Positions 18,402 through 60,579 of a stretch of DNA of 64,000 bases are shown here, one piece after another. How positions within the stretch are numbered: position 1 is the stretch's first letter; the number at the start of each line of letters is the position of its first letter. The stretch is from Candidatus Woesearchaeota archaeon (GTDB lineage Archaea > Nanobdellota > Nanobdellia > Woesearchaeales > JAHWHD01), in assembly GCA_019323515.1 (NCBI GenBank), contig JAHWHG010000002.1, positions 18,316-82,315 of the forward strand, read 5' to 3'. A model generated the notes under the pieces. It saw only the letters and a program-made list of their open reading frames with translations, was not told the origin of the DNA and did not search any database. A program made the position numbers and the translations under genes.

Positions 18402-19394
18402 TTATTCAGCAAGAAATATATTGTTCTTGTCCTCAAGAATCTTTACCTTCTGCATCTGGCCAGGCTTTTTAGTGCAGTTGTTTATTGAGATGCACCTGTT
18501 TCCAGCGACACCTATCATCTGGCCATTGATCCAGCCAGGGCATTTTACAAGAGCATTCACCTTGTCACCTTTCTTAAACTGAGATGGAAGGCGTTGGCAT
18601 TTCTTTATGTTCATGTTCTGCCGTGTAAGAATCAAGTCAACCTTAAACTCCTTTTCCCATTTCTTTAGCTGGTCATAGAATTTCCAATAAGTAAGCTCTT
18701 TAGCACCTTTTATCTTTCTGCTATATTTGTATGTCTCGTACTTCTGTATGCCGAGTCTTACATTCAGCTCTTTAGCAAGCTTGATTATGTCAATAATGTC
18801 TTTATCGTTGATCTTTGGCATCCAGACTGGTGTTAAAAAGAGTTCAATCTTTTGCTTTGAAATGTACTTGCAAAGCTCTATTATCTTACTGACATCATAT
18901 GAAGGTACTCCTGCAAGTTTTTTTCCGAGTTCCTTGTCTAGAGTGTGAATAGAAAGGTTGATCCTTCCAAGTCCTGCTTTGATAAGCTTGTCAATCATTT
19001 CTTTTGTCAGGAAAGAGGCGTTTGTCTGCATTGAGATAAAGTGGATGCCTTTAATCTTGTTAAGTTTCTTTACAAGTTCAATCAAATCAGGGTATAATGT
19101 AGTTTCTCCAACTGAGTCAATGTTTGCCTCAACAGAGCAGCCTTGTTCATTCTTATAGTCAACAACTTCCTTTACCCATTCAATAAGATAGGAAAGGTCT
19201 ATATTATAGTCAGCCTGGTGCCTTTTTGAGCATTTACCTGAGTCAGTTGAGCAGAAAGGACAGCAGAGGTTGCAGATTGATGTTGGCCGGATCTGGATTA
19301 GATTAGTGCCTCTGTCTATAATCCCGAATGCAATACAGCCTATCAATGGAATACCAGATTCTTTTGTTATGTTGATAAGGGTTTTATTTTTCAA
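18402..19394 (-). CDS. Radical SAM protein
   Basis: ORF track 330 aa. CNLCCPFC gives the CxxxCxxC cluster motif near the N-terminus, with a TIM-barrel-like middle. The C-terminal extension has no motif I recognise. Confidence 0.8.
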   Translation of the reverse strand: MKNKTLINITKESGIPLIGCIAFGIIDRGTNLIQIRPTSICNLCCPFCSTDSGKCSKRHQADYNIDLSYLIEWVKEVVDYKNEQGCSVEANIDSVGETTLYPDLIELVKKLNKIKGIHFISMQTNASFLTKEMIDKLIKAGLGRINLSIHTLDKELGKKLAGVPSYDVSKIIELCKYISKQKIELFLTPVWMPKINDKDIIDIIKLAKELNVRLGIQKYETYKYSRKIKGAKELTYWKFYDQLKKWEKEFKVDLILTRQNMNIKKCQRLPSQFKKGDKVNALVKCPGWINGQMIGVAGNRCISINNCTKKPGQMQKVKILEDKNNIFLAE

Positions 19395-20088
19395 TTTTCT
19401 TCCAGTCCATTCCTTTTACAAGGTGTTTGCATTTAAGGGAGCAGTCTGCGTATATATTGAAGCCTTTTTGGTAGCAATCTTTACAGAAGAACATGTCGTC
19501 AAAGACCACTTTATCAGGTTCATAACGAAACTCAATCTCTTTTAGTATATCCCTGTGGATGAGAATACAGCCAACTCCGCAAGCTCCTACTTGAATTAAT
19601 TTATCATTCTCAACCTCTTCTTCATCATACTGCCTTACTGAACTTCCCTTTACTATTGCGTATAAAAGCGGTTTAATAAGGGTTATGCCTGGTGCGTTTG
19701 TTACATTATATTCTTTGTAATATACTCCGGAAATAATCTTTTTATTATGTCTAAGCATACTTTCAATAATATCTTCAGGAGGTATGATGTCCTGTTCAAG
19801 TGAGAAGAAGTAGTCATAGTTGTCTTCTAAAGCCTTTTTCCTAATCATGTTCCTTGCCTTTACAATCCTGTCTCTGGCTTTTCCTGTGTAAGGAATCTTT
19901 CTTAGGATAATGTGTCTATTTATGATCTTTAACTTTTCCTTTAGAATGTTGAAATAGTCTTCAGTCTCTGAGTTGTCTACTATCATTATGTCAAAGTCTG
20001 AATAAGTCAGCTTTTTAAGGCCTTCAATGTACTCGTCAATGCAGTATGCCTTGTGGTTTGAGGTAGGACAACCTAGTAAGATTCTCAT
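19384..20088 (-). CDS. Glycosyltransferase-like protein (paralog A)
   Basis: ORF track 234 aa. LLGCPTSNHKAYCIDEYIEGLKKLTYSDFDIMIVDNSE...FFSLEQDIIPPED has a GT-A-like N-terminal Rossmann half with acidic motifs. It is a clear paralog of 23800..24522. Confidence 0.55.
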   Translation of the reverse strand: MRILLGCPTSNHKAYCIDEYIEGLKKLTYSDFDIMIVDNSETEDYFNILKEKLKIINRHIILRKIPYTGKARDRIVKARNMIRKKALEDNYDYFFSLEQDIIPPEDIIESMLRHNKKIISGVYYKEYNVTNAPGITLIKPLLYAIVKGSSVRQYDEEEVENDKLIQVGACGVGCILIHRDILKEIEFRYEPDKVVFDDMFFCKDCYQKGFNIYADCSLKCKHLVKGMDWKKIEK

Positions 20089-23799: not shown

Positions 23800-24522
23800 C
23801 TATTGTTCAATATTATGCCAGCTGTTCTCTGCGCTTCTCCCTTTTAGCATATGCCTGCACTTTATAGATGTGTCACAGAATATCTTTTGTTTCAGCTCTT
23901 TCATGTCCAGAGAGAACCAGATATCGTCAAATGCCTTGTTCTCTGGGTTAAAGCGGAACTCAAACCTGTCAAGAAGATCCCTATGAATAAGCACGCACCC
24001 AAGACCGCATGCTCCAACCTCTATAACGCGTTCTTCCTCAACCTCATCTGCATGCATCAATCTTATGTCTCCTGTCTCAGGATGCATCTCAAAAAGTACA
24101 GGATGGAGTGTGTTCTTCATATAGCCATGGGCAGGTTTTAGTATATAATATACTCCAGATATTACCTTTTTATCATGCTTAAGAAGTCTTTGTATCGTGT
24201 CAGGGACAGGTATGACATCCTGTTCAAGCGAGAAGAAGTAATCGTAATTGCCTGATATGGCTTTCTCTTTTATTTTGTTCCTTGCCTTTACAATCCTGTC
24301 ACGTGCCTTTGGAGTGAAATCAATCTTCTCTATTATCACTTTTTTTGGAAAATCCTTAAACTTTTCCTTTAACAGGTTGAAGTAGCTGTCATCCTCAGAA
24401 TTGTCAACTAATATTATATCAAAGTTAGAGTAATCCAGTTGCTTAAGACCCTCAATATACTCATCAATACAATACAGTTTGTGCCTGGATGTTGGACATC
24501 CGACAAGAACTTTTGGTTGCAT
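23800..24522 (-). CDS. Glycosyltransferase-like protein (paralog B)
   Basis: ORF track 240 aa. VLVGCPTSRHKLYCIDEYIEGLKQLDYSNFDIILVDNSE...FFSLEQDVIPVPD is collinear with 19384..20088. Confidence 0.55.
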   Translation of the reverse strand: MQPKVLVGCPTSRHKLYCIDEYIEGLKQLDYSNFDIILVDNSEDDSYFNLLKEKFKDFPKKVIIEKIDFTPKARDRIVKARNKIKEKAISGNYDYFFSLEQDVIPVPDTIQRLLKHDKKVISGVYYILKPAHGYMKNTLHPVLFEMHPETGDIRLMHADEVEEERVIEVGACGLGCVLIHRDLLDRFEFRFNPENKAFDDIWFSLDMKELKQKIFCDTSIKCRHMLKGRSAENSWHNIEQ

Positions 24523-38733: not shown

Positions 38734-38869
38734 GAGCTCTGTCTTAAGACTCGTTCGGCTGCTCAATCTTTTTGCAATGATGTTGTTGAGCACCTAGGGA
38801 CACGTCGAACGAGGTTCGAGTACAGCCCGTATTGCCTCTCTGGCCCTTTGGCGTCTTAAGACAGAGCTC
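38734..38869 (+). repeat. Structured ~135-nt repeat, copy 1
   Basis: It has perfect 17-bp terminal inverted repeats GAGCTCTGTCTTAAGAC...GTCTTAAGACAGAGCTC. These enclose nested helices CTCGTTCG/CGAACGAG and GCTGCTCAA/TTGAGCA. It is ~90 percent identical by eye to 42074..42207. Confidence 0.85.
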
Positions 38870-38895
38870 TTAAGACTCGTTCGGCTGCTCAATCT
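38868..38895 (+). repeat. 28-nt partial third copy of the repeat 5' arm
   Basis: tcttaagactcgttcggctgctcaatct is identical to 38742..38769 and abuts or overlaps the 3' end of copy 1. Confidence 0.85.
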
Positions 38896-42074: not shown

Positions 42075-42207
42075 GCTCACTTTTAAGACTCGTTCGGCTG
42101 CTCAATCTTTTTCTAAACATGTTGTTGAGCACCTAGGGACACGTCGAACGAGGTTCGAATACAGCCCGTATTGCCTCACTGGCCAATTGGCGTCTTAAAA
42201 CCGAGCC
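42074..42207 (+). repeat. Structured ~135-nt repeat, copy 2
   Basis: GGCTCACTTTTAAGAC...GTCTTAAAACCGAGCC are the terminal arms. The internal helices match copy 1, and it is followed by the same AGAAATGTTTTTAT promoter block. Confidence 0.85.
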
Positions 42208-47105: not shown

Positions 47106-48110
47106 CTAGAACAGTGCTCTTCCTAACCTGTAGTCCGGGTTAGGGTTGAGGTAATTAACAAGCCTTTTAATTAATTCAAGAGAGTTAACGTATCTGTCCT
47201 CTAAATCTGCGTAACCTTCGCTGTTGCCAAGCTGTACCTTGTCATAGTCAGCATAATGATGAATCTCTTTAAATATATTTTTGCAGTACTCAAAGAAATA
47301 TCTTGGGTTCTCTCTGATGTGTTTTTTTAGTCTGTTATTTGGTTCAAAATAGTATGTGAATCCTCCATGATTCTTTATGTATTGATTCATATCTGCAGTC
47401 TCTTTGCTTAGTGTGTTTGAATGATGTCCAATGTCCCAGGCAAGCCTCTGTACGAGTTTCTCCATTGCATACAATCCGAATGAGTAAAGGTCTGAATATT
47501 TATGAATCATTTCATCTTTATACTCTGGTGGCGCGTATGCACGGTTCCAGAACAGGCCATTGTCTTCCTCTAAAGGACAGGCAATACCAAAATCAATAAG
47601 GTGGTAATCAAGGATGTTTGCTGGTCTGATGTCTTTATGCTGAAGGCCTTGGTAGGTTAATGATAGAACAGCTTCCTCAAGTTTTTGCATGTTATGGAAC
47701 TCTTTTGCTAATCCTATAAGGCCGTAGTTGTTATAATAATAAGGTTTGATGTAAGGCATTAAGATACCTGGTATGTCGCCAAAAGTTACCATGCCTAAGC
47801 AGTTTACTATGTTTGGGTGTGACATGTCGAATGAATTGAAGATCCTAATCTCGTTAAGGTGCCTTTCAAAATGAGTCATCTTAAGTACATGGTCTATCAT
47901 TCCAGTGCTTTTAATGAATTCAAGGTCTATCAGCTCGTTAGGGATATTTACCTTGCAGACAGCCTGGTAATCTGACCATCTTTGTTCTTCTTTTACATTA
48001 ATGTAGTACAATTGGCTAAGACAGTCAAGGTCTTTGCCCCTAAACCCTTGAAAAATCTTTATCTTTCCGCAGTCACTCACTTGTCCTGGTTCAAGAAGAT
48101 ATGCCATCAT
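47106..48110 (-). CDS. Hanks-type (eukaryotic-like) protein kinase paralog K1
   Basis: ORF track 334 aa with AVCKVNIPN (Lys), NEIRIF (Glu), HKDIRPANI, DFG, APPEY and SDLYSFG. The N-terminus MAYLLEPGQVSDCG is shared with K2. The C-terminus is diverged (YLNPNPDYRLGRALF). Confidence 0.8.
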   Translation of the reverse strand: MMAYLLEPGQVSDCGKIKIFQGFRGKDLDCLSQLYYINVKEEQRWSDYQAVCKVNIPNELIDLEFIKSTGMIDHVLKMTHFERHLNEIRIFNSFDMSHPNIVNCLGMVTFGDIPGILMPYIKPYYYNNYGLIGLAKEFHNMQKLEEAVLSLTYQGLQHKDIRPANILDYHLIDFGIACPLEEDNGLFWNRAYAPPEYKDEMIHKYSDLYSFGLYAMEKLVQRLAWDIGHHSNTLSKETADMNQYIKNHGGFTYYFEPNNRLKKHIRENPRYFFEYCKNIFKEIHHYADYDKVQLGNSEGYADLEDRYVNSLELIKRLVNYLNPNPDYRLGRALF

Positions 48111-49087
48111 ACATACTCCATTAGTTCTTCAGTTAAAAGATGTTTAGGAGGGATTCTTTTGTCAGGGTCAGGGTTTAGGTAGTAGCGGCAGATTTGAATT
48201 AGTCCTGAACAATCAACTGCCGAGATATAGGAATCATATGACATTGAGTTGTCTTCAACATGAAAATCATTATCTTTAAAATAATTGATATTTTTCTGGA
48301 GAATCCTAATGAATTCTTCTGAATCCTGCCTGACATTCTTTGAAAATTCGTAAGGTTCCTCACTAAAGTTAAGAACCTTTCTACAAAAATCAGGTTTAAG
48401 TTCTTTAGAATCAAAATACCCATAAGAAATCCCTCTTAGATAAGTCGTTTGAAGAGACATCCCAACTGAATAAGATATTAATAACCCAACTGAGTAAAGG
48501 TCAGAATTTTTATGAGGCTTGCAGTTGAAATATTCAGGGGCACAAAATGAACGATTAAAAAATATTCCATTGTCGCTGTCGACTCTACAGGCAATCCCAA
48601 AATCAATCAGTTTGCCACCAATAACATTGTCAGGCTTAATGTCCTTGTGTGAGATACCATTATGCCTTAGATAATATACAGCACCTTCAATGCCTCTGAA
48701 CGTTTCAGGATAAAGAAACAAGATTCCTCCATACATGTCACGATTACAAAGATTAAGAACTGCCACTGGAAGATCTTTAAATGTTATATCACCTAATAAA
48801 GAAATTATGTTTGGGTGAGAAATTTGTTTAAGGATCGAAACTTCATTATTATGCCTTTTGTTATGTGATTGAAGATTTAACATAACCTGTAAGCCTGTAC
48901 TTATTAATCCTTCTCTATCAATTCTGTTATTTGGAATATTTAATTTTCCTATATTTGCAGTATCTGAGCCGAACTTCTGCAATACAAATAGCTGGCTTAG
49001 ACAATCCAGGTTTTCTCCCCTTATCCCATGAATAACCTTATACCTAGCGCAGTCGCTCACTTGTCCTGGTTCTAGAAGATATGCCAT
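48107..49087 (-). CDS. Hanks-type protein kinase paralog K2
   Basis: ORF track 326 aa with IGKLNIPN, NEVSILKQISHPNI, HKDIKPDNV, DFG, APEY, SDLYSVG and C-terminal YYLNPDPDKRIPPKHLLTEELMEYV. The stop overlaps the K1 start (ATGA). Confidence 0.8.
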   Translation of the reverse strand: MAYLLEPGQVSDCARYKVIHGIRGENLDCLSQLFVLQKFGSDTANIGKLNIPNNRIDREGLISTGLQVMLNLQSHNKRHNNEVSILKQISHPNIISLLGDITFKDLPVAVLNLCNRDMYGGILFLYPETFRGIEGAVYYLRHNGISHKDIKPDNVIGGKLIDFGIACRVDSDNGIFFNRSFCAPEYFNCKPHKNSDLYSVGLLISYSVGMSLQTTYLRGISYGYFDSKELKPDFCRKVLNFSEEPYEFSKNVRQDSEEFIRILQKNINYFKDNDFHVEDNSMSYDSYISAVDCSGLIQICRYYLNPDPDKRIPPKHLLTEELMEYV

Positions 49088-50181
49088 TATAGATACCCCA
49101 TTAGTTCCTCAGTTAAAAGGTCTTTAGGAGGGATTCTTTTTTCAGGGTCACGGTTTAGGTAGTAGCAGAATCTTTCAAGGAATTTTTCATCGAGTGACAG
49201 GTTAAATACTCCCTGAAGGTTACTTGCCTTAAGATTCATAGCATCGTGCAATGTCTTATACTCTGCTGAACCGCTTAGCTCCCAAGCACCTGAGAAATGT
49301 TGCTCAAAAACTGAGAGGCAACCTACAGGACCTCCTGCATCTTGGAAGAACTTTGTAAAGTTTTTGGGGTATTCTCTTATGCTCTTTACCACGTTTATAT
49401 CGTTAAATTGAGGTATGTACTCACTGACAAATTCCTTAATAATTGTGTATAATTTAATCTTCATATCTTGCCTTAGTCTATTAAGATTGTAGTCTATTGA
49501 ATCTTTCTTGTATCCTTCTTTAAAGTCCTCATCTGGATCTTCGTCAAGACAAAAAACAATTTGCCTGAACATTGCCTCAAAGTATACTAAAGCTGCACTG
49601 TATAAATCAGAATTAATATGTGCTCTTTTTTCATAAAACTCAGGAGGGCAATATGCCCTATTAAAGAAAAATCCGTTGTCTGCGTCAATGTGTGAAGCAA
49701 GGCCAAAGTCAATCAGTTTGCCAGCAAGTATGTTTCTTGGGGATATGTCTTTGTGTAATATTCTTTTTGATCTTAAGTAGTAAACAGCGGATTCCAGGCC
49801 TGATAATTCTGAGACACATCCTTTTGAATGCCTATCAAGAACTTTACCTATTTTCATCAGCATTCCGCGCTTTCCGTTGAACTCACAGATGTCATAAATC
49901 TCCTGAATATTTGGATGTCTAAGGCTTTTAAGTATTGAAACCTCATTATCAAACCTTTCCTCGTGCGTCTGCATCGATAATATCTGTGACATCCCAGTAC
50001 TTCTTACATGTTCTTTGTCAATCAAATCGTTTGGGATGTTTACTTTAAGTATTAGAATATGTTTATCATCCTTTGTAACATATAACTGGCTTAAGGAGTC
50101 ACAATTTTCTCCAATTAAACCAAGAGCAGCCATGTACTTTCCGCAGTCGCTTTTCTGGCCTGGATTAAGTAAGAATACCAT
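49087..50181 (-). CDS. Hanks-type protein kinase paralog K3
   Basis: The track ORF starts at TTG 50193. I prefer ATG 50181 (MVFLLNPGQKSDCGKY aligns with the K1/K2 N-termini; atttataaag 50201..50210 lies upstream). It has LILKVNIPN, NEVSILKSLRHPNI, HKDISPRNI, DFG, PPEF, SDLYSAA and YYLNRDPEKRIPPKDLLTEELMGYL. The stop overlaps the K2 start (TAATG). Confidence 0.8.
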   Translation of the reverse strand: MVFLLNPGQKSDCGKYMAALGLIGENCDSLSQLYVTKDDKHILILKVNIPNDLIDKEHVRSTGMSQILSMQTHEERFDNEVSILKSLRHPNIQEIYDICEFNGKRGMLMKIGKVLDRHSKGCVSELSGLESAVYYLRSKRILHKDISPRNILAGKLIDFGLASHIDADNGFFFNRAYCPPEFYEKRAHINSDLYSAALVYFEAMFRQIVFCLDEDPDEDFKEGYKKDSIDYNLNRLRQDMKIKLYTIIKEFVSEYIPQFNDINVVKSIREYPKNFTKFFQDAGGPVGCLSVFEQHFSGAWELSGSAEYKTLHDAMNLKASNLQGVFNLSLDEKFLERFCYYLNRDPEKRIPPKDLLTEELMGYL

Positions 50182-50200: not shown

Positions 50201-50210
50201 GATTTATAAA
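50201..50210 (-). promoter_or_regulatory. TATA box upstream of kinase K3
   Basis: atttataaag lies 20 nt upstream of ATG 50181. Confidence 0.4.
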
Positions 50211-51158: not shown

Positions 51159-51239
51159 ATTTTTCTTGTAGGGGTTTAGTTTTTATAAAGGTTTAGGATG
51201 TGGGTAAAGTATATAAATAGTTAATTCTTAAGTTCCTAT

Positions 51240-53241: not shown

Positions 53242-53748
53242 ATGGTACTGAATCCGTTTGGTAAAGGGAAGAAGCCTGAGAAGGTTGAAAAGGTAGAGCT
53301 TGAGCCTGCCACTTTGGATGAGATCTTTCCAGCTAAAAAGCCGAGCTTTTATTCAAGATTGAAGCAGGATGTTAATTATTATTTGAAGGATCTTGCACTG
53401 GCTGGTATTGGCTGTTATTTCTTCTTTAGTCTGTTCTCGCATAACGGGTGCTTTGATTCGTTAAGGACAAAGGATGCTATGCAGTATCGTTCTAAGGATA
53501 ATCTTGTTAAAGTGGTTGAGTCTGTTGAGGAAGAGTGGAAGGATAATGAGCAGTATATGGTCTTAGATGGGTATAATCCTAAGGTCATAAGGAAGGTTAA
53601 GTTTAAGGACGGTTCTGATACATGGCTTAGCTACAGGACAATGGCGCATCAGCCTTACATGAAATGGTTGCACGGTGATGAGTTTGATCCTAAAGTAGGA
53701 GAAAGGTATGAAGTCAGGGGTAGGGTCATTGTGAGGAAGGTTGAATAG
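53242..53748 (+). CDS. Hypothetical single-TM protein
   Basis: ORF track 168 aa with one hydrophobic span (LALAGIGCYFFFSLF). Confidence 0.45.
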   Translation: MVLNPFGKGKKPEKVEKVELEPATLDEIFPAKKPSFYSRLKQDVNYYLKDLALAGIGCYFFFSLFSHNGCFDSLRTKDAMQYRSKDNLVKVVESVEEEWKDNEQYMVLDGYNPKVIRKVKFKDGSDTWLSYRTMAHQPYMKWLHGDEFDPKVGERYEVRGRVIVRKVE

Positions 53749-54326: not shown

Positions 54327-54674
54327 ATGAAGTTTCCGCTCACCAAGAAGGATATAATTGCAATGAACCAGGTGTTTGACCAGGGGATTTTGATCAATGA
54401 GGAGAGTCTTGACTTTGCTATAAGCTATGCTAGAATGACAGAGAACTGGGTAAAGGCTCTTGCTTTTTTGGTCAGAGCGATAAACGTTGACCATGTCTTT
54501 GAGGAAGGAAATAAGCGGACAGCTGCATTACTGATAGAGACCTATGTTGAGTTTGAAGGCCATAAGGTGTACAAGGATAAACTTGCTTTATTGATTGCTC
54601 GAATGGCAGCTAAAAGGGTAACAAGCATAAGAAGATTGGAGGAGATGATCAAAGATGTCATCAAGAATAGTTAA
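54327..54674 (+). CDS. doc: Doc (death-on-curing) family toxin
   Basis: ORF track 115 aa. HVFEEGNKRTAALL matches the Doc variant of the Fic motif (HxFx[D/N/E][A/G]NKR). Confidence 0.75.
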   Translation: MKFPLTKKDIIAMNQVFDQGILINEESLDFAISYARMTENWVKALAFLVRAINVDHVFEEGNKRTAALLIETYVEFEGHKVYKDKLALLIARMAAKRVTSIRRLEEMIKDVIKNS

Positions 54675-56602: not shown

Positions 56603-57664
56603 CTAGCCCATGTACTTCAACAGTTCTTCTGTCAATAGCTCTTTAGGAGGGATTCTTTTGTCAGGGTCAGGGTTTAGGTAGTAGCGGCATCTTTCTAAAA
56701 GTTTTCTGGACCATACTCCCTCAGGTGACCATTCAAATGCTCCATAATATCCCATTATCTCTCCCTCAGATACAACTTCTTCCAGCTTTTTATAAAAATG
56801 TGAAAATAAGTCTACATATTCATTATAATGATCTTTTATCTTTCCTGGGTAGTTTTTGTCTTTGGACCAATCAATAAAATCTTCATAGTAGGTAATCGGT
56901 CTCCAATCTATATCTTTGGTCTCTGGAAACAGACCTTTATCCACAAAGTCCTGAAGCTGCTCTAAAAAACCTTTTGCCTTGACACGAATATATGTGCATT
57001 TTGGGGAACTTTTATACCAGTCCCTTATGATCAGCTGCTCTAACAAGGCATTGATTATAACCAGGCCATACGAGTATATGTCAGAATTCTTATGTAGCCT
57101 GCAATCATCAAACTCAGGTGGTCTGAACATCCTGTTAAAATATAAACCGTTGTCATCTTCAAATCTGCAAGCAATACCAAAATCAATTAATTTTGATTTT
57201 GTCATGTTCATTGGTCTTATGTCCTTGTGCGCTATCCCTTTATGTCTTAGATAGTAAATTGCAGGCTCGATCTTGTCTAAGTGCTGGATAGGATAGTTTA
57301 TCCAAAAATTTTTATGGTAATCAGTTTCCAGAGCAAACACTATTGCAGGAAGTCCATCAAAATAAGTTGTGTCGTGTAAAGATATTATGTTAGGATGGTG
57401 AAGCTGTTTAAGGATGGCGACTTCGTTTTCAAACCTCTCTATATGTGTCAAATGATTTAGCATATGGGACATGCCTGTACTCTGGATATGTTCCTTATCA
57501 ATAAGGTCATTAGGGATGTTTAACTTTGCAGCGAGTGACTGTGGAGAAGCCAGCCAATATACCTGGCTCAAGCAGTCCCTTATACATCCAGATAAAGGTA
57601 AAAACACTGTGTACTTGCCGTCATCTGAAACCTGGTCACGACTTAGCAATAATCCATCTCCCAT
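56603..57664 (-). CDS. Hanks-type protein kinase paralog K4
   Basis: ORF track 353 aa with AAKLNIPN, NEVAILKQLHHPNI, HKDIRPMNM, DFG, PPEF, SDIYSYG and YYLNPDPDKRIPPKELLTEELLKYMG. Confidence 0.8.
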   Translation of the reverse strand: MGDGLLLSRDQVSDDGKYTVFLPLSGCIRDCLSQVYWLASPQSLAAKLNIPNDLIDKEHIQSTGMSHMLNHLTHIERFENEVAILKQLHHPNIISLHDTTYFDGLPAIVFALETDYHKNFWINYPIQHLDKIEPAIYYLRHKGIAHKDIRPMNMTKSKLIDFGIACRFEDDNGLYFNRMFRPPEFDDCRLHKNSDIYSYGLVIINALLEQLIIRDWYKSSPKCTYIRVKAKGFLEQLQDFVDKGLFPETKDIDWRPITYYEDFIDWSKDKNYPGKIKDHYNEYVDLFSHFYKKLEEVVSEGEIMGYYGAFEWSPEGVWSRKLLERCRYYLNPDPDKRIPPKELLTEELLKYMG

Positions 57665-57753
57665 AGGGTTAGCTAGTGATAGAAGGATTTAAAGGTTATT
57701 GTGAGGGGTTAAGTGAATAAATATTTATAAATCCTTTACTGGTTCTTTGGATT

Positions 57754-58615: not shown

Positions 58616-59032
58616 TCAGGAAAGAAGTTCCTTAATCTGGCTGATAAACTTAAGCATGCTATCAATTAAATCAGATGCTTCTTCCTTTGAGACATCTTTG
58701 CCATAATAATTTATCTGGTTTCTTAATCTCCTGAACCTGTCAAAGGTTTCTGCAAGGTTTGGCTTATCAAGTATCTCTTTAAGAAAAGCGACATAGCATT
58801 GGTGGTTATAGATCTTGTATCCTTCACTGATCGCCAAAGCTTCTAAAAGTTCCCTTAAAGATTCATATAGAAGACTTAACTTTGAAGATGCTGTAGTATC
58901 ATTGAGCTCAAGCATCGACTGTGTTTCCAGTTTCTTTGCAGAAGAATCTTTCAGAGATTTAATCAGGCTTTTATCAATAGTGATACTTTTTACCATATCA
59001 TTCATATTACAAGCTTTCCAGTCCATCACCAT
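58616..59032 (-). CDS. HEPN domain protein (toxin partner of MNT)
   Basis: ORF track 138 aa, four-helix-like. FDRFRRLRNQINYYG matches the R-x-x-R-N-x-x-x-Y HEPN (PF05168-type) signature. It overlaps the upstream MNT gene by 7 nt. Confidence 0.7.
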   Translation of the reverse strand: MVMDWKACNMNDMVKSITIDKSLIKSLKDSSAKKLETQSMLELNDTTASSKLSLLYESLRELLEALAISEGYKIYNHQCYVAFLKEILDKPNLAETFDRFRRLRNQINYYGKDVSKEEASDLIDSMLKFISQIKELLS

Positions 59033-59517
59033 GCACCTGAAAGTATGTGGCCGTTAAGAATGTTGTTCAACAACTGTTTTGGTACAGATTTCTTATCCTT
59101 GAATATGAACAGTTGTATCTCCCTTTTTTTATGCTTTAATAGTGGTTTTTTTGTAGAAGAAGTGAATACAGCAATATCAATATCTGAACCAGGCTTGACC
59201 TCAGCTTTTGAAAGTGAACCGAAAAGGATTATCAAAGGATCTATCAGCTCTTTTTCCATCTGTTTTACTAGAGGTTCCAGCTCCAGGCTCCAGTAAACTC
59301 TTGAAAGGTCCCTAAAAAGTTTGCTCTCCTTGTCTGCAGAATAAAAGATATAGTTCCTGTCAAGCTCCTTTGTTAGTAGCCCTTGATCCTTGTAATAAGT
59401 CAAAAGCTTTGAAGCAGTAGGGGCTGTTATGCCAATCAACCTGGCGTATTCCCTTACATTTATCCTTCTATAACAGTCTTCAAAAAAGGGTTTTAAATCG
59501 TTTAATATATTTAACAT
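59026..59517 (-). CDS. wHTH + minimal nucleotidyltransferase (MNT) protein
   Basis: ORF track 163 aa with an N-terminal HTH (YARLIGITAPTASKLLTYYKDQGLL) followed by GSLSKAEVKPGSDIDIAVF (GS...DxD). Confidence 0.75.
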   Translation of the reverse strand: MLNILNDLKPFFEDCYRRINVREYARLIGITAPTASKLLTYYKDQGLLTKELDRNYIFYSADKESKLFRDLSRVYWSLELEPLVKQMEKELIDPLIILFGSLSKAEVKPGSDIDIAVFTSSTKKPLLKHKKREIQLFIFKDKKSVPKQLLNNILNGHILSGAW

Positions 59518-59691: not shown

Positions 59692-60579
59692 ATGTTCATA
59701 GAAATAAGAGAAGTAGGTAAAAGCAAGAAGTATTATCTTATACATACCTATAGGTCAAAGGGTAAAGTAAAACGTCTATCTAAATATCTTGGTTCTAATC
59801 TAAGTAAAATTAAACTGCAAAAATTACGGAAAAAGGCAGAGCAGCAGATATCAGAGGAGATAAAAGAGAAGGATATTCTTGGATTTGAACTGTCAAAAGA
59901 TGAGATCGAAAAATACAAAAGATATGAAAGGGATATAGAGATCAAACATCTGCAAAACTGGCAGAAGTTTACTGAGAATTTTACCTATAATACAAACGCG
60001 ATCGAGGGCTCAACAGTTGCGTTATCTGAGGTAAGGGAACTGCTTAGAGGAGAGGACAAGCCTCATGATAATGATGAAATTGAAACATTAAATGTTGCAG
60101 AGGCGATTGAGTTCATCAAAAATTCTAAACTGAAGGTTACAGTTGCGTTTATCAAGAAGTTACATAAGATCTGCTTTAACAGGACAAAACGGTTTGCAGG
60201 CAAGTTAAGGGATGTTAATGTGGTGATCCGTGATTCAAAAGGGATGGTTGTTCATGAAGGTGCTCCAGTTGACCAGCTAAAACTACTGCTTGAAGAACTT
60301 TGCACTTGGTATGAAAAACATAAAAGGAAATATCCTGCATTGCTGCTTGCTGCAGTGATGCATAACCAGTTTGAAAAGATCCATCCATTTCAGGATGGTA
60401 ATGGAAGGGTTGGCAGGTTACTGCTTAATTATGTACTAATAAGGCATGATTATCCGCCAATCAATATCAGGCTTAAGGATAGGGCAAGATATTATCGTTG
60501 CTTGCATGAGTATGATAATAAGAACGATATCAAATCAACCCTGAAATTTCTGATAAACCAGTACAAAAAACAATATTAG
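59692..60579 (+). CDS. fic: Fic family protein
   Basis: ORF track 295 aa. HPFQDGNGRVGRLL is the canonical Fic motif HxFx(D/E)GNGRxxR. Confidence 0.9.
   Translation: MFIEIREVGKSKKYYLIHTYRSKGKVKRLSKYLGSNLSKIKLQKLRKKAEQQISEEIKEKDILGFELSKDEIEKYKRYERDIEIKHLQNWQKFTENFTYNTNAIEGSTVALSEVRELLRGEDKPHDNDEIETLNVAEAIEFIKNSKLKVTVAFIKKLHKICFNRTKRFAGKLRDVNVVIRDSKGMVVHEGAPVDQLKLLLEELCTWYEKHKRKYPALLLAAVMHNQFEKIHPFQDGNGRVGRLLLNYVLIRHDYPPINIRLKDRARYYRCLHEYDNKNDIKSTLKFLINQYKKQY

What the first reader, a model, noticed from the sequence alone, without database searches (positions are those of the whole stretch)
48143..48190. 48-nt identical stretch shared by kinase genes 8.5 kb apart; conserved gene ends and variable middles (possible gene conversion or cassette exchange)
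Seen in sequence: 48143..48190 in K2 (tttaggagggattcttttgtcagggtcagggtttaggtagtagcggca) is identical to 56642..56689 in K4. K3 (49123..49168) differs at only 3-4 positions. At the 5' ends, 48069..48107 (K1) and 49049..49087 (K2) differ at 2 of 39 nt. Between these ends the genes are too diverged to align at DNA level by eye. Identity at synonymous positions over ~16 codons is more than protein-level constraint requires. That suggests recent gene conversion, recombination anchors for shuffling the variable middles, or an overlapping nucleic-acid-level signal.
Basis: seen in the sequence. Interest (0 to 1): 0.6.

Follow-up and report, generated by a model that had tools for sequence, protein, structure and literature searches.

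The report
Short gene-conversion tracts between archaeal kinase paralogs
Four old, highly diverged protein-kinase gene copies in a Woesearchaeota (DPANN) archaeon share a few short stretches with almost no silent-site differences, most likely because the copies recently copied short pieces onto each other (gene conversion); this is real but a known kind of event.

Summary
The 48-mer 48143-48190 (K2) is identical to 56642-56689 (K4). K3 (49123-49170) differs at 4 of 48 positions. The K1 and K2 5' ends differ at 2 of 39. The 48-mer is the longest exact repeat in the window, and independent metagenome runs show it in only these contexts.

It encodes CRYYLNPDPDKRIPPK, kinase subdomain XI, in four Hanks-type kinase paralogs (36-45% amino-acid identity) of a Woesearchaeota/Nanoarchaeota genome. 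K3-K2-K1 overlap stop to start. K4 lies 6.4 kb upstream of K3.

Protein constraint and codon bias do not explain the identity. Among K2, K3 and K4, pS in the block is 0, against 0.78-0.88 in the catalytic core. P(16 identical codons) is about 1e-6, and rare codons are shared. K1 and a distant relative encode the same motif with other codons.

Adjacent segments have different nearest neighbours: K3=K4, then K2=K4, then K2~K3, and K1~K2 at the 5' end. I found no RNA structure, overlapping ORF, reverse transcriptase, recombinase or convincing internal promoter.

Best reading: several short interlocus gene-conversion events, including homogenisation of the two tandem gene junctions. Cassette exchange is not supported, because no pair shares both ends. 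Interest is modest.

The parts
47106..48110 (-). K1, Hanks-type Ser/Thr kinase paralog and last kinase of the K3-K2-K1 array. It starts at ATG 48110 or, by analogy with K2, at ATG 48107. Its C-terminus is shorter (…YLNPNPDYRLGRALF*) and does not share the codon-identical block.
   Evidence: ORF. Pfam Pkinase E=4e-13, above cutoff. In the same motif, pS against the other copies is 0.78-0.80.
48107..49087 (-). K2, the middle kinase paralog. Its stop overlaps the K1 start (ATGA/TGATG) and its start overlaps the K3 stop (TAATG).
   Evidence: ORF and sequence. Pfam Pkinase E=4e-18, residues 75-318 matching profile positions 41-258 of 263.
49087..50181 (-). K3, the first kinase of the array, starting at ATG 50181.
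   Evidence: ORF. Pfam Pkinase E=6e-19. Strong leaderless-type promoter score of 19.2.
56603..57664 (-). K4, a solitary kinase paralog 6.4 kb upstream of K3 on the same strand. It is monocistronic, and the gene downstream of it is convergent.
   Evidence: ORF. Pfam Pkinase E=3e-15. Promoter score 11.8.
48143..48190 (-). The 48-mer in K2 (codons 300-315, CRYYLNPDPDKRIPPK, kinase subdomain XI), identical to the K4 copy.
   Evidence: pS=0 and pN=0 against K4.
56642..56689 (-). The 48-mer in K4, identical to the K2 copy.
49123..49170 (-). Near copy in K3 (FCYYLNRDPEKRIPPK). It has 4 differences, all amino-acid changing, and no silent differences.
48013..48198 (-). K2|K1 junction block: the last ~30 codons of K2, the stop/start overlap, and the first ~32 codons of K1. 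It is homologous as one unit to the K3|K2 junction.
   Evidence: Repeat family D1, 186 nt, 83% identity, spacing 980. The alignment of the central part is shown. K1-K2 5'-end pS is 0.24 with pN 0.
48993..49178 (-). K3|K2 junction block, the partner of the K2|K1 junction.
   Evidence: K2-K3 tail pS is 0.28, against 0.83-0.91 for either copy against K4.
50203..50210 (-). Palindromic TATA box TTTATAAA, 22-29 nt upstream of the K3 ATG. It is the promoter of the K3-K2-K1 transcription unit (leaderless type).
57687..57693 (-). TATA-like box TTTAAAT, 23-29 nt upstream of the K4 ATG.

Best explanation
K1-K4 are four old paralogs of a lineage-specific Hanks-type protein kinase in a Woesearchaeota (DPANN) archaeon. 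Silent sites are saturated along most of their length. In a few short stretches the copies have recently overwritten one another by non-reciprocal homologous recombination (interlocus gene conversion), which reset divergence there to about zero.

At least two or three separate events are needed:
(a) a tract of at least 48 nt between K2 and K4, across subdomain XI, 8.5 kb apart;
(b) a tract of about 120-190 nt that homogenised the two tandem junctions as a unit (K3 tail + K2 head against K2 tail + K1 head);
(c) a small K3-K4 patch just upstream of the 48-mer.

The strongly conserved protein motifs at the gene ends (YYLNPDPDKRIPPK; MAYLLEPGQVSDC) keep enough DNA identity for strand invasion, so conversion recurs there and not in the variable region.

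Shown: the identity, the zero silent divergence, the failure of codon bias to explain it, the mosaic of nearest neighbours, and the absence of detectable RNA structure, alternative ORF or recombinase. Inferred: the conversion mechanism itself, the number and direction of events, and the idea that the conserved motifs act as recurrent initiation sites. Selection on the stop/start overlap and a Shine-Dalgarno-like GGAG/GGGG may add a few constrained bases at the junctions.
For: - Silent divergence (Nei-Gojobori). In the 48-mer block, Sd=0 of about 10 silent sites for K2-K3, K2-K4 and K3-K4. In the catalytic core pS is 0.78-0.88. K1 in the same block has pS 0.78. The tail gives pS 0.28 for K2-K3 but 0.83-0.91 against K4. 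The 5' end gives pS 0.24 for K1-K2, and the other pairs are saturated.
- Identical-codon fraction at identical residues. It is 0.40-0.50 in the core. In the C-terminal region it is 18/19 for K2-K3 (Fisher p=4e-5) and 18/23 for K2-K4. In the N-terminal region it is 10/12 for K1-K2, p=0.008.
- Run-length permutation gives p=0.0014-0.004 for the three C-terminal pairs. Two other paralog pairs in the window show fraction 0.50, runs of 7-8, not significant.
- Codon usage. P(16 identical codons | identical residues) is about 1e-6. The shared codons include rare ones: CGC 7%, CTA 9%, ATC 28%.
- Mosaic. Quartet patterns in the core are 21:20:20 (star-like), but 12:2:1 for K1K2|K3K4 in codons 1-35 (chi-square p=0.006). 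At the 3' end, informative sites run K3=K4 (5 of 7), then K2=K4 (4 of 4), then K2=K3 (8 of 11). Fisher test of block against tail gives p=0.015.
- The junction tract crosses the gene boundary as one unit. DNA-level homogenisation predicts this.
- The only other full-length family member found, P0128 (E=5e-43), conserves YLNFDPDKRMPPK but uses different codons at 7 of the 11 residues it shares with K2/K4 (the two substituted residues, F and M, aside).
- Literature. Concerted evolution by gene conversion is documented in bacterial and archaeal protein-coding paralogs (PMC6053082). Tracts in bacterial multigene families are short, a few hundred nt or less (PMC8223754, discussion).
Against: - There are only four paralogs, with no orthologs from sister species. 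The classical test, paralogs more alike within a genome than orthologs between genomes, could not be run.
- The informative-site counts for the mosaic are small (4, 7 and 11 sites).
- The order of similarity in the block (K2=K4 > K3 > K1) parallels the weak amino-acid ordering in the core (dN: K2-K4 0.41, K3 0.46-0.52, K1 0.53-0.59). Part of the pattern could therefore be ordinary history with a locally very low rate.
- P0128 comes from a 28% GC genome, so its different codons are partly compositional.
- No conversion event or chimeric allele was seen in population data.
Confidence: 0.6

Rival explanations
1. The conserved stretches are nucleotide-level functional elements under purifying selection. 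Candidates include a cis-regulatory signal for expressing the downstream kinase (internal promoter, SD sequestration or translational coupling), a shared small-RNA or antisense target, or a protein-binding DNA site embedded in the coding sequence.
For: - Silent sites are frozen.
- The K3 and K2 tails, which precede another kinase gene, keep CTTTTAAC (codons L-L-T) 31 nt upstream of the next ATG, where this genome's TATA boxes sit. K4, with no downstream kinase, encodes the same L-L-T as CTA TTG ACA.
- In MFE folds, CCUCC of the 48-mer pairs with the GGAG/GGGG just upstream of the next start codon.
- All four K3 differences in the block are non-synonymous, which would be odd for a pure DNA element but leaves silent positions untouched.
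Against: - K4 carries the perfect 48-mer without any downstream kinase gene.
- K1 has the same protein motif with normal silent divergence.
- A promoter matrix built from 19 genomic TATA sites scores the junctions at -0.8 and -5.6. These are reached by 8% and 30% of random coding positions. The real K3 and K4 promoters score 19.2 and 11.8.
- There is no significant structure on either strand: the sense 48-mer has an MFE of 0, and z-scores run from -1.7 to +1.5.
- Rfam gives no hit.
- No other frame is open across the three copies.
- The distant relative uses different codons.
- A shared functional element does not predict nearest neighbours that alternate between adjacent segments.
Confidence: 0.17
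2. Modular cassette exchange. The conserved ends are recombination anchors that allow the variable substrate-side region of the kinases to be swapped between loci, or replaced from outside, as a diversity-generating arrangement.
For: - The region between the catalytic core and subdomain XI is highly variable in sequence and length.
- A 48-nt perfect direct repeat is long enough for homologous recombination.
- K3 carries a polymorphic cluster of 5 amino-acid-changing SNPs in its variable region, with two haplotypes in one sample.
Against: - No gene pair shares both a 5' and a 3' anchor, so a double crossover that exchanges a middle is not possible in the present state.
- The catalytic core between the ends is as saturated as the variable part.
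- The repeats are direct, so a crossover would delete 8.5 kb rather than exchange cassettes.
- No recombinase, reverse transcriptase or silent cassette copies are in the window.
- No donor for the K3 variant haplotype is in the window.
- No joints were seen, though unitigs are blind to them.
Confidence: 0.07
3. No special process. The identity follows from strong protein constraint plus codon preference, or from chance.
For: The block encodes the most conserved C-terminal kinase motif (subdomain XI), which is conserved even in the distant relative P0128.
Against: - P is about 1e-6 from genomic codon usage, and the shared codons include rare ones.
- K1 and P0128 show that the motif tolerates synonymous change.
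- Equally invariant catalytic motifs (HKDIxPxN, LIDFG) show about 50% codon identity.
- Control paralog pairs show no such runs.
Confidence: 0.03

Closest known systems
Concerted evolution of prokaryotic protein-coding paralogs by interlocus gene conversion. Examples are tufA/tufB in Proteobacteria, mtrA, mtmB/C and mtbB/C in methanogens, and archaeal chaperonin subunits (PMC6053082 and the references in it to Lathe & Bork 2001 and Archibald & Roger 2002).
   Same: Paralogs in one genome share stretches far more similar at silent sites than their age allows. Different segments give conflicting relationships. Non-reciprocal homologous recombination is the accepted mechanism.
   Different: In those cases conversion covers most or all of the gene and keeps the copies functionally uniform, and it is shown by comparison with orthologs in other species. 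Here the tracts are very short (about 48-190 nt) and confined to the gene ends of copies that are otherwise only 36-45% identical in protein. No ortholog comparison is possible.
Short-tract conversion in bacterial contingency or antigenic-variation families (pilE/pilS, vlsE and similar), as summarised in PMC8223754.
   Same: Short conversion tracts, with conserved flanking segments next to variable segments.
   Different: Those systems have silent donor cassettes, one expression site, and frequent programmed transfer of the variable part. Here all four genes are complete and have plausible expression signals. It is the conserved part, not the variable part, that looks transferred. No silent cassettes were found.
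Hanks-type (eukaryotic-like) Ser/Thr protein kinases of archaea and bacteria, Pfam PF00069.
   Same: All four proteins match Pkinase above the gathering score and keep the catalytic residues.
   Different: This is a very narrow lineage-specific subfamily with its own N-terminal (LLxPGQxSD) and C-terminal (YLNxDPDKRxPPK) motifs. Only one other full-length member was found among 1.84 billion representative proteins.

Membership tests
Interlocus gene conversion / concerted evolution | Paralogous sequences in the same genome, with a delimited tract of much lower silent-site divergence than the flanks | tested here: met
   pS=0 in the block against 0.78-0.88 in the core. Run-length permutation p=0.001-0.004. 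Codon-usage expectation about 1e-6.
Interlocus gene conversion / concerted evolution | Mosaic structure: adjacent segments support different relationships among the copies | tested here: met
   Core 21:20:20 against N-terminal 12:2:1 (p=0.006). The 3' segments run K3=K4, then K2=K4, then K2=K3 (Fisher p=0.015). The site counts are small.
Interlocus gene conversion / concerted evolution | Paralogs more similar to each other within a genome than to their orthologs in sister species | not testable with these tools
   No orthologs were found in 5.8 billion proteins, GTDB genomes or JGI metagenomes. The one distant relative uses different codons for the motif, which is consistent but weak.
Interlocus gene conversion / concerted evolution | Conversion events or chimeric alleles segregating in populations | tested here: inconclusive
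   Contigs of five runs (X1, X2, X5, X7, X8) show no variation in the tracts and no chimeric joints. However, Logan unitigs break at the repeat and drop rare variants.
Hanks-type protein kinase (PF00069) | Match to the Pkinase profile above the gathering score | tested here: met
   49.7-69 bits against a cutoff of 31.7 for all four. The best solved relatives are DAPK, CDPK and PknB-type kinases at E about 1e-16.
Hanks-type protein kinase (PF00069) | Catalytic residues: beta3 Lys, alphaC Glu, HxD…N catalytic loop, DFG, APE-like motif, subdomain XI Arg | tested here: met
   Invariant in the four-way alignment (K2 numbering): K48, E82, H147-K-D149…N154, D162-F-G164, P184-E185, R311. Enzymatic activity was not tested. 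The AlphaFold model had low confidence (pLDDT 58).
Diversity-generating retroelement (DGR) | Reverse transcriptase gene nearby, and a template/variable repeat pair differing at adenines | tested here: not met
   No reverse-transcriptase domain in any scanned ORF of the window. The K3 differences from K2/K4 on the coding strand are G>T, C>T, C>G and C>A, so they are not adenine-specific.
Shufflon / site-specific cassette inversion | Inverted repeats flanking the segments, plus a site-specific recombinase | tested here: not met
   The repeats are direct and all genes are on the same strand. No recombinase or integrase domain was found.
Embedded archaeal promoter for the downstream gene | A TATA/BRE match at -33 to -27 comparable with the genome's own promoters | tested here: not met
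   Matrix scores are -0.8 and -5.6, reached by 8% and 30% of coding positions. Real promoters have a median of 5.5, and K3 and K4 score 19.2 and 11.8.
Structured RNA element | Folding energy beyond shuffled controls, or a match to a known RNA family | tested here: not met
   z-scores run from -1.74 to +1.51 and the sense 48-mer is unstructured. No Rfam hit.

The most novel reading that the evidence does not exclude
The codon-frozen C-terminal block, with the junction block, is not only a conversion scar. It would be a maintained recombination or regulatory module that links the kinase paralogs. For example, it could be a hotspot that lets this reduced-genome DPANN archaeon reassort kinase bodies and tails between the tandem array and the solitary copy, or a shared target for one antisense or small RNA that co-regulates K2, K3 and K4.
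Probability: 0.07. Interest if true: 0.6.

Novelty: new member of a known kind. Interest (0 to 1): 0.3.

Why it matters
It is a clean small example showing that intragenomic gene conversion operates in a DPANN (Woesearchaeota) genome. It can act on tracts of only about 50-190 nt, between paralogs that are otherwise saturated at silent sites and up to 8.5 kb apart.

For annotation and evolution work, it warns that trees or dS estimates built from the ends of these genes will mislead.

The kinase family itself may be of some interest to people studying DPANN biology. It is four tandem or near-tandem copies with a hypervariable substrate-side region, essentially unique to this lineage.

It does not open a new kind of mechanism.

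Tried and rejected
- Codon bias as the cause: rejected.
- RNA structure on either strand of the 48-mer and of the three 120-141-nt contexts: nothing beyond shuffles. Rfam at gathering threshold on the whole window: no hit.
- Overlapping ORF in another frame: every alternative frame has stops in at least one copy.
- Internal leaderless promoter in the K3 and K2 tails. CTTTTAAC at -31 looked attractive, and K4 lacks it. However, a matrix built from the genome's own TATA sites scores it within the coding background.
- Remnant of a deleted kinase downstream of K4, or other kinase fragments or silent cassettes in the window: none found by tblastn or blastn.
- Orthologs or extra family members for a within-species against between-species comparison:
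  - The protein word-index search found only the four copies.
  - GTDB genomes gave only generic kinases.
  - A degenerate back-translated motif scan of JGI metagenomes gave 0 hits.
  - The profile-based locus scan gave only generic kinases.
  - The exhaustive profile search gave one distant member, P0128.
- Population variation and chimeras. Contigs of runs X1, X2, X5, X7, X8 and X11 are essentially identical to the window, and unitigs break at the repeat, so they are uninformative on chimeras. One read-laying run failed on a filter.
- The exact-protein lookup of K2 found no encoding contig.
- The AlphaFold model of K2 from the 4-sequence alignment was too poor (pLDDT 58) for a fold search.
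- DGR and shufflon readings: no reverse transcriptase or recombinase.
- K1's downstream neighbour and K4's divergent neighbour are not homologous.

Full report
**What is there**

The window is chromosomal DNA (38% GC) from a DPANN archaeon of the Woesearchaeota/Nanoarchaeota group.
- It carries archaeal housekeeping genes: family-B DNA polymerase, aIF2-alpha, GINS51, PAC2, seryl-tRNA synthetase and an S-layer-like protein.
- The closest seryl-tRNA synthetases (78-82% identity) are labelled Woesearchaeota or Nanoarchaeota.

Four genes on the minus strand encode Hanks-type Ser/Thr kinases:
- K1 47106-48110
- K2 48107-49087
- K3 49087-50181
- K4 56603-57664

All four match Pfam Pkinase above the gathering score and keep the catalytic residues.

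K3, K2 and K1 form a tight array with overlapping stop and start codons (TAATG, ATGA/TGATG). A strong TATA box (TTTATAAA) lies 22-29 nt upstream of the K3 ATG. K4 stands alone 6.4 kb upstream of K3 with its own TATA box. TATA-like boxes at about -30 from the ATG are common in this genome, which suggests mostly leaderless transcripts.

The paralogs are 36-45% identical in protein.

The family is extremely narrow.
- A search of 5.8 billion proteins found only these four.
- GTDB genomes and JGI metagenomes gave only generic kinases.
- An exhaustive profile search of 1.84 billion representatives found one further full-length member, P0128 (E=5e-43). It shares both the N-terminal and the C-terminal signature motifs.

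**Checking the observation**

Every stated identity holds.
- The 48-mer is the longest exact repeat in the window.
- It encodes CRYYLNPDPDKRIPPK, which lies at the very end of the Pkinase profile match, in subdomain XI.
- It is real in nature. In Logan contigs from independent runs of different studies, unitigs stop 30 nt into the repeat in both the K2 and the K4 context, and no further contexts exist.

- A 186-nt block spans the end of one gene, the stop/start overlap and the beginning of the next.
- It is repeated at a spacing of exactly 980 nt with 83% identity.
- Its central 90 nt show 8 differences, about 91% identity (my count on the alignment).

**Is it more than protein constraint?**

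Yes.
- At residues that are identical between two copies, the codon is also identical in 40-50% of cases in the body of the genes.
  - In the C-terminal region the figure is 18/19 for K2-K3 and 18/23 for K2-K4.
  - In the N-terminal region it is 10/12 for K1-K2.
- Nei-Gojobori counts give pS=0 for all three pairs among K2, K3 and K4 in the 48-mer block. The catalytic core gives 0.78-0.88, which is saturation.
- Runs of 14-16 identical codons have permutation p-values of 0.001-0.004.
- Two other paralog pairs in the same window show the 0.50 baseline and unremarkable runs.
- From the window's codon usage, the chance that 16 such codons all agree is about 1e-6. The shared codons include rare ones: CGC 7%, CTA 9%.
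- K1 encodes the same motif with ordinary silent divergence (pS 0.78).
- The distant relative P0128 encodes YLNFDPDKRMPPK mostly with other codons.

So the motif does not need these nucleotides.

**Conversion or a hidden nucleic-acid signal?**

Several tests for a signal came back empty.
- There is no folding beyond shuffled controls on either strand. The sense 48-mer is completely unstructured.
- There is no Rfam match.
- No alternative open frame is shared by the copies.
- One lead looked good. The K3 and K2 tails keep CTTTTAAC (codons Leu-Leu-Thr) exactly where this genome places TATA boxes relative to the next ATG. K4, which has no kinase downstream, spells the same three residues CTA TTG ACA.
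- A position matrix built from 19 of the genome's own TATA sites scores the two junctions at only -0.8 and -5.6. That is within the coding background (8% and 30% of random coding positions reach it). The real K3 and K4 promoters score 19.2 and 11.8.
- I therefore do not accept the embedded-promoter idea. A few bases around the stop/start overlap and the GGAG/GGGG upstream of it may still be constrained for re-initiation.

Two facts speak most strongly against a coupling or promoter signal: K4 carries the perfect 48-mer with no downstream kinase, and K1 lacks it.

**Positive evidence for conversion: the mosaic**

- In the catalytic core the three possible quartet groupings are supported equally (21:20:20), which is a saturated star.
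- In the first 35 codons the grouping K1K2|K3K4 wins 12:2:1 (p=0.006).
- At the 3' end three adjacent segments each have a different closest pair:
  - K3=K4 just before the block (5 of 7 informative sites)
  - K2=K4 in the block (4 of 4)
  - K2=K3 in the tail (8 of 11)
  - Fisher test of block against tail: p=0.015.
- The junction tract runs straight across a gene boundary.

Repeated short DNA-level copying predicts both features. A single conserved element does not.

Gene conversion among prokaryotic paralogs, including archaeal ones, is well documented (PMC6053082). Tracts in bacterial multigene families are short (PMC8223754, discussion).

**Cassette exchange**

This reading is not supported.
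- No pair of genes shares both ends. K1 and K2 share only the 5' end. K2, K3 and K4 share only the 3' end. A double crossover that swaps a middle has no anchors.
- The repeats are direct, so a crossover would delete 8.5 kb.
- There are no silent cassettes or kinase fragments.
- There is no recombinase or reverse transcriptase in the window.
- Population contigs are nearly invariant, although unitigs cannot reveal chimeras.

**Limits**

- There are four sequences and no orthologs, so the decisive test could not be run. That test asks whether the copies are identical within genomes but different between them.
- The informative-site counts are small.
- The block's similarity order loosely parallels the amino-acid distances in the core.

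I put short-tract gene conversion at about 0.6, a nucleotide-level functional element at about 0.17, and cassette-type exchange at about 0.07. Chance or codon bias is about 0.03; an assembly artefact is excluded by the independent runs. The remainder is unassigned: mixed causes, or an explanation not considered here.

**Verdict**

This is a real, statistically supported feature with an ordinary best explanation: a new example of a known process in an under-studied lineage. Interest is modest (0.3).

Noticed in passing
window 38735-38870 and 42075-42205 (+), with a partial third copy of the 5' arm at 38868-38895: Two copies of a GC-rich intergenic element of about 125 nt, sharing exact 40-mers and 30-mers. 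It folds into a multi-branch structure closed by a 16-bp stem (MFE -53.9 kcal/mol, z=-4.1) and contains a T-loop-like GGTTCGA motif. ARAGORN calls no tRNA, and Rfam gives no hit even at E<=1. It may be an unknown small RNA or a miniature mobile element.
   Followed up: partly
window 49396-49428 (inside K3, variable region): A cluster of 5 SNPs within 33 nt, all amino-acid changing (KEFVSEYIPQFNDIN to KEFINDYIPQFNDMN). In run X1 the two haplotypes have depths 7.2 and 3.9. The alternative form is the only one in the X5 and X7 contigs. No donor sequence is in the window. The cause could be diversifying selection, or a micro-conversion from a copy outside the window.
   Followed up: partly
window 53247-53298 (first ~40 nt of ORF 53242-53748, +): Contig depth jumps to about 51 against 14 in the flanks in X1 (28 in X5). 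Many different sequences continue on both sides in X1, X5 and X7. This short 5' gene end is therefore shared by many genes or organisms in these metagenomes. It is another conserved gene end, and its nature is unknown.
   Followed up: no
window-wide; examples at 50203-50210, 51183-51190 and 57687-57693: About 19 of 53 ORFs have a TTTATAAA/TTTAAAT box starting 33-27 nt upstream of the ATG, often preceded by AAAC(C). This implies that leaderless transcripts are the rule for first genes. Several internal genes instead show GGAGGTGAT-like Shine-Dalgarno sequences.
   Followed up: partly
window 54327-54674, 58616-59517 and 59692-60579: The kinase neighbourhood is rich in toxin-antitoxin-like and defence-like small genes: a Doc-like protein, a pair that by reading its residues looks like a HEPN protein (58616-59032) and a nucleotidyltransferase (59026-59517), which was not scanned against any family library, and a Fic-domain protein. 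There are also several ORFs with no family match. This suggests a variable genomic region.
   Followed up: no
window 19384-20088 and 23800-24522 (-): Two glycosyltransferase-family-2 paralogs (51% identical) share an exact 25-mer over the motif DRIVKARN. When tested as a control, the codon-identity run is not significant (p=0.17).
   Followed up: yes
L084 10001-11212 (Logan contig of SRR26541449, 28% GC): This is the only other full-length member of the kinase subfamily (P0128, 403 aa). It is single-copy and sits among archaeal housekeeping genes (SRP54, diphthamide synthase, Pth2, dUTPase). The four-copy expansion therefore seems specific to the window's lineage.
   Followed up: partly
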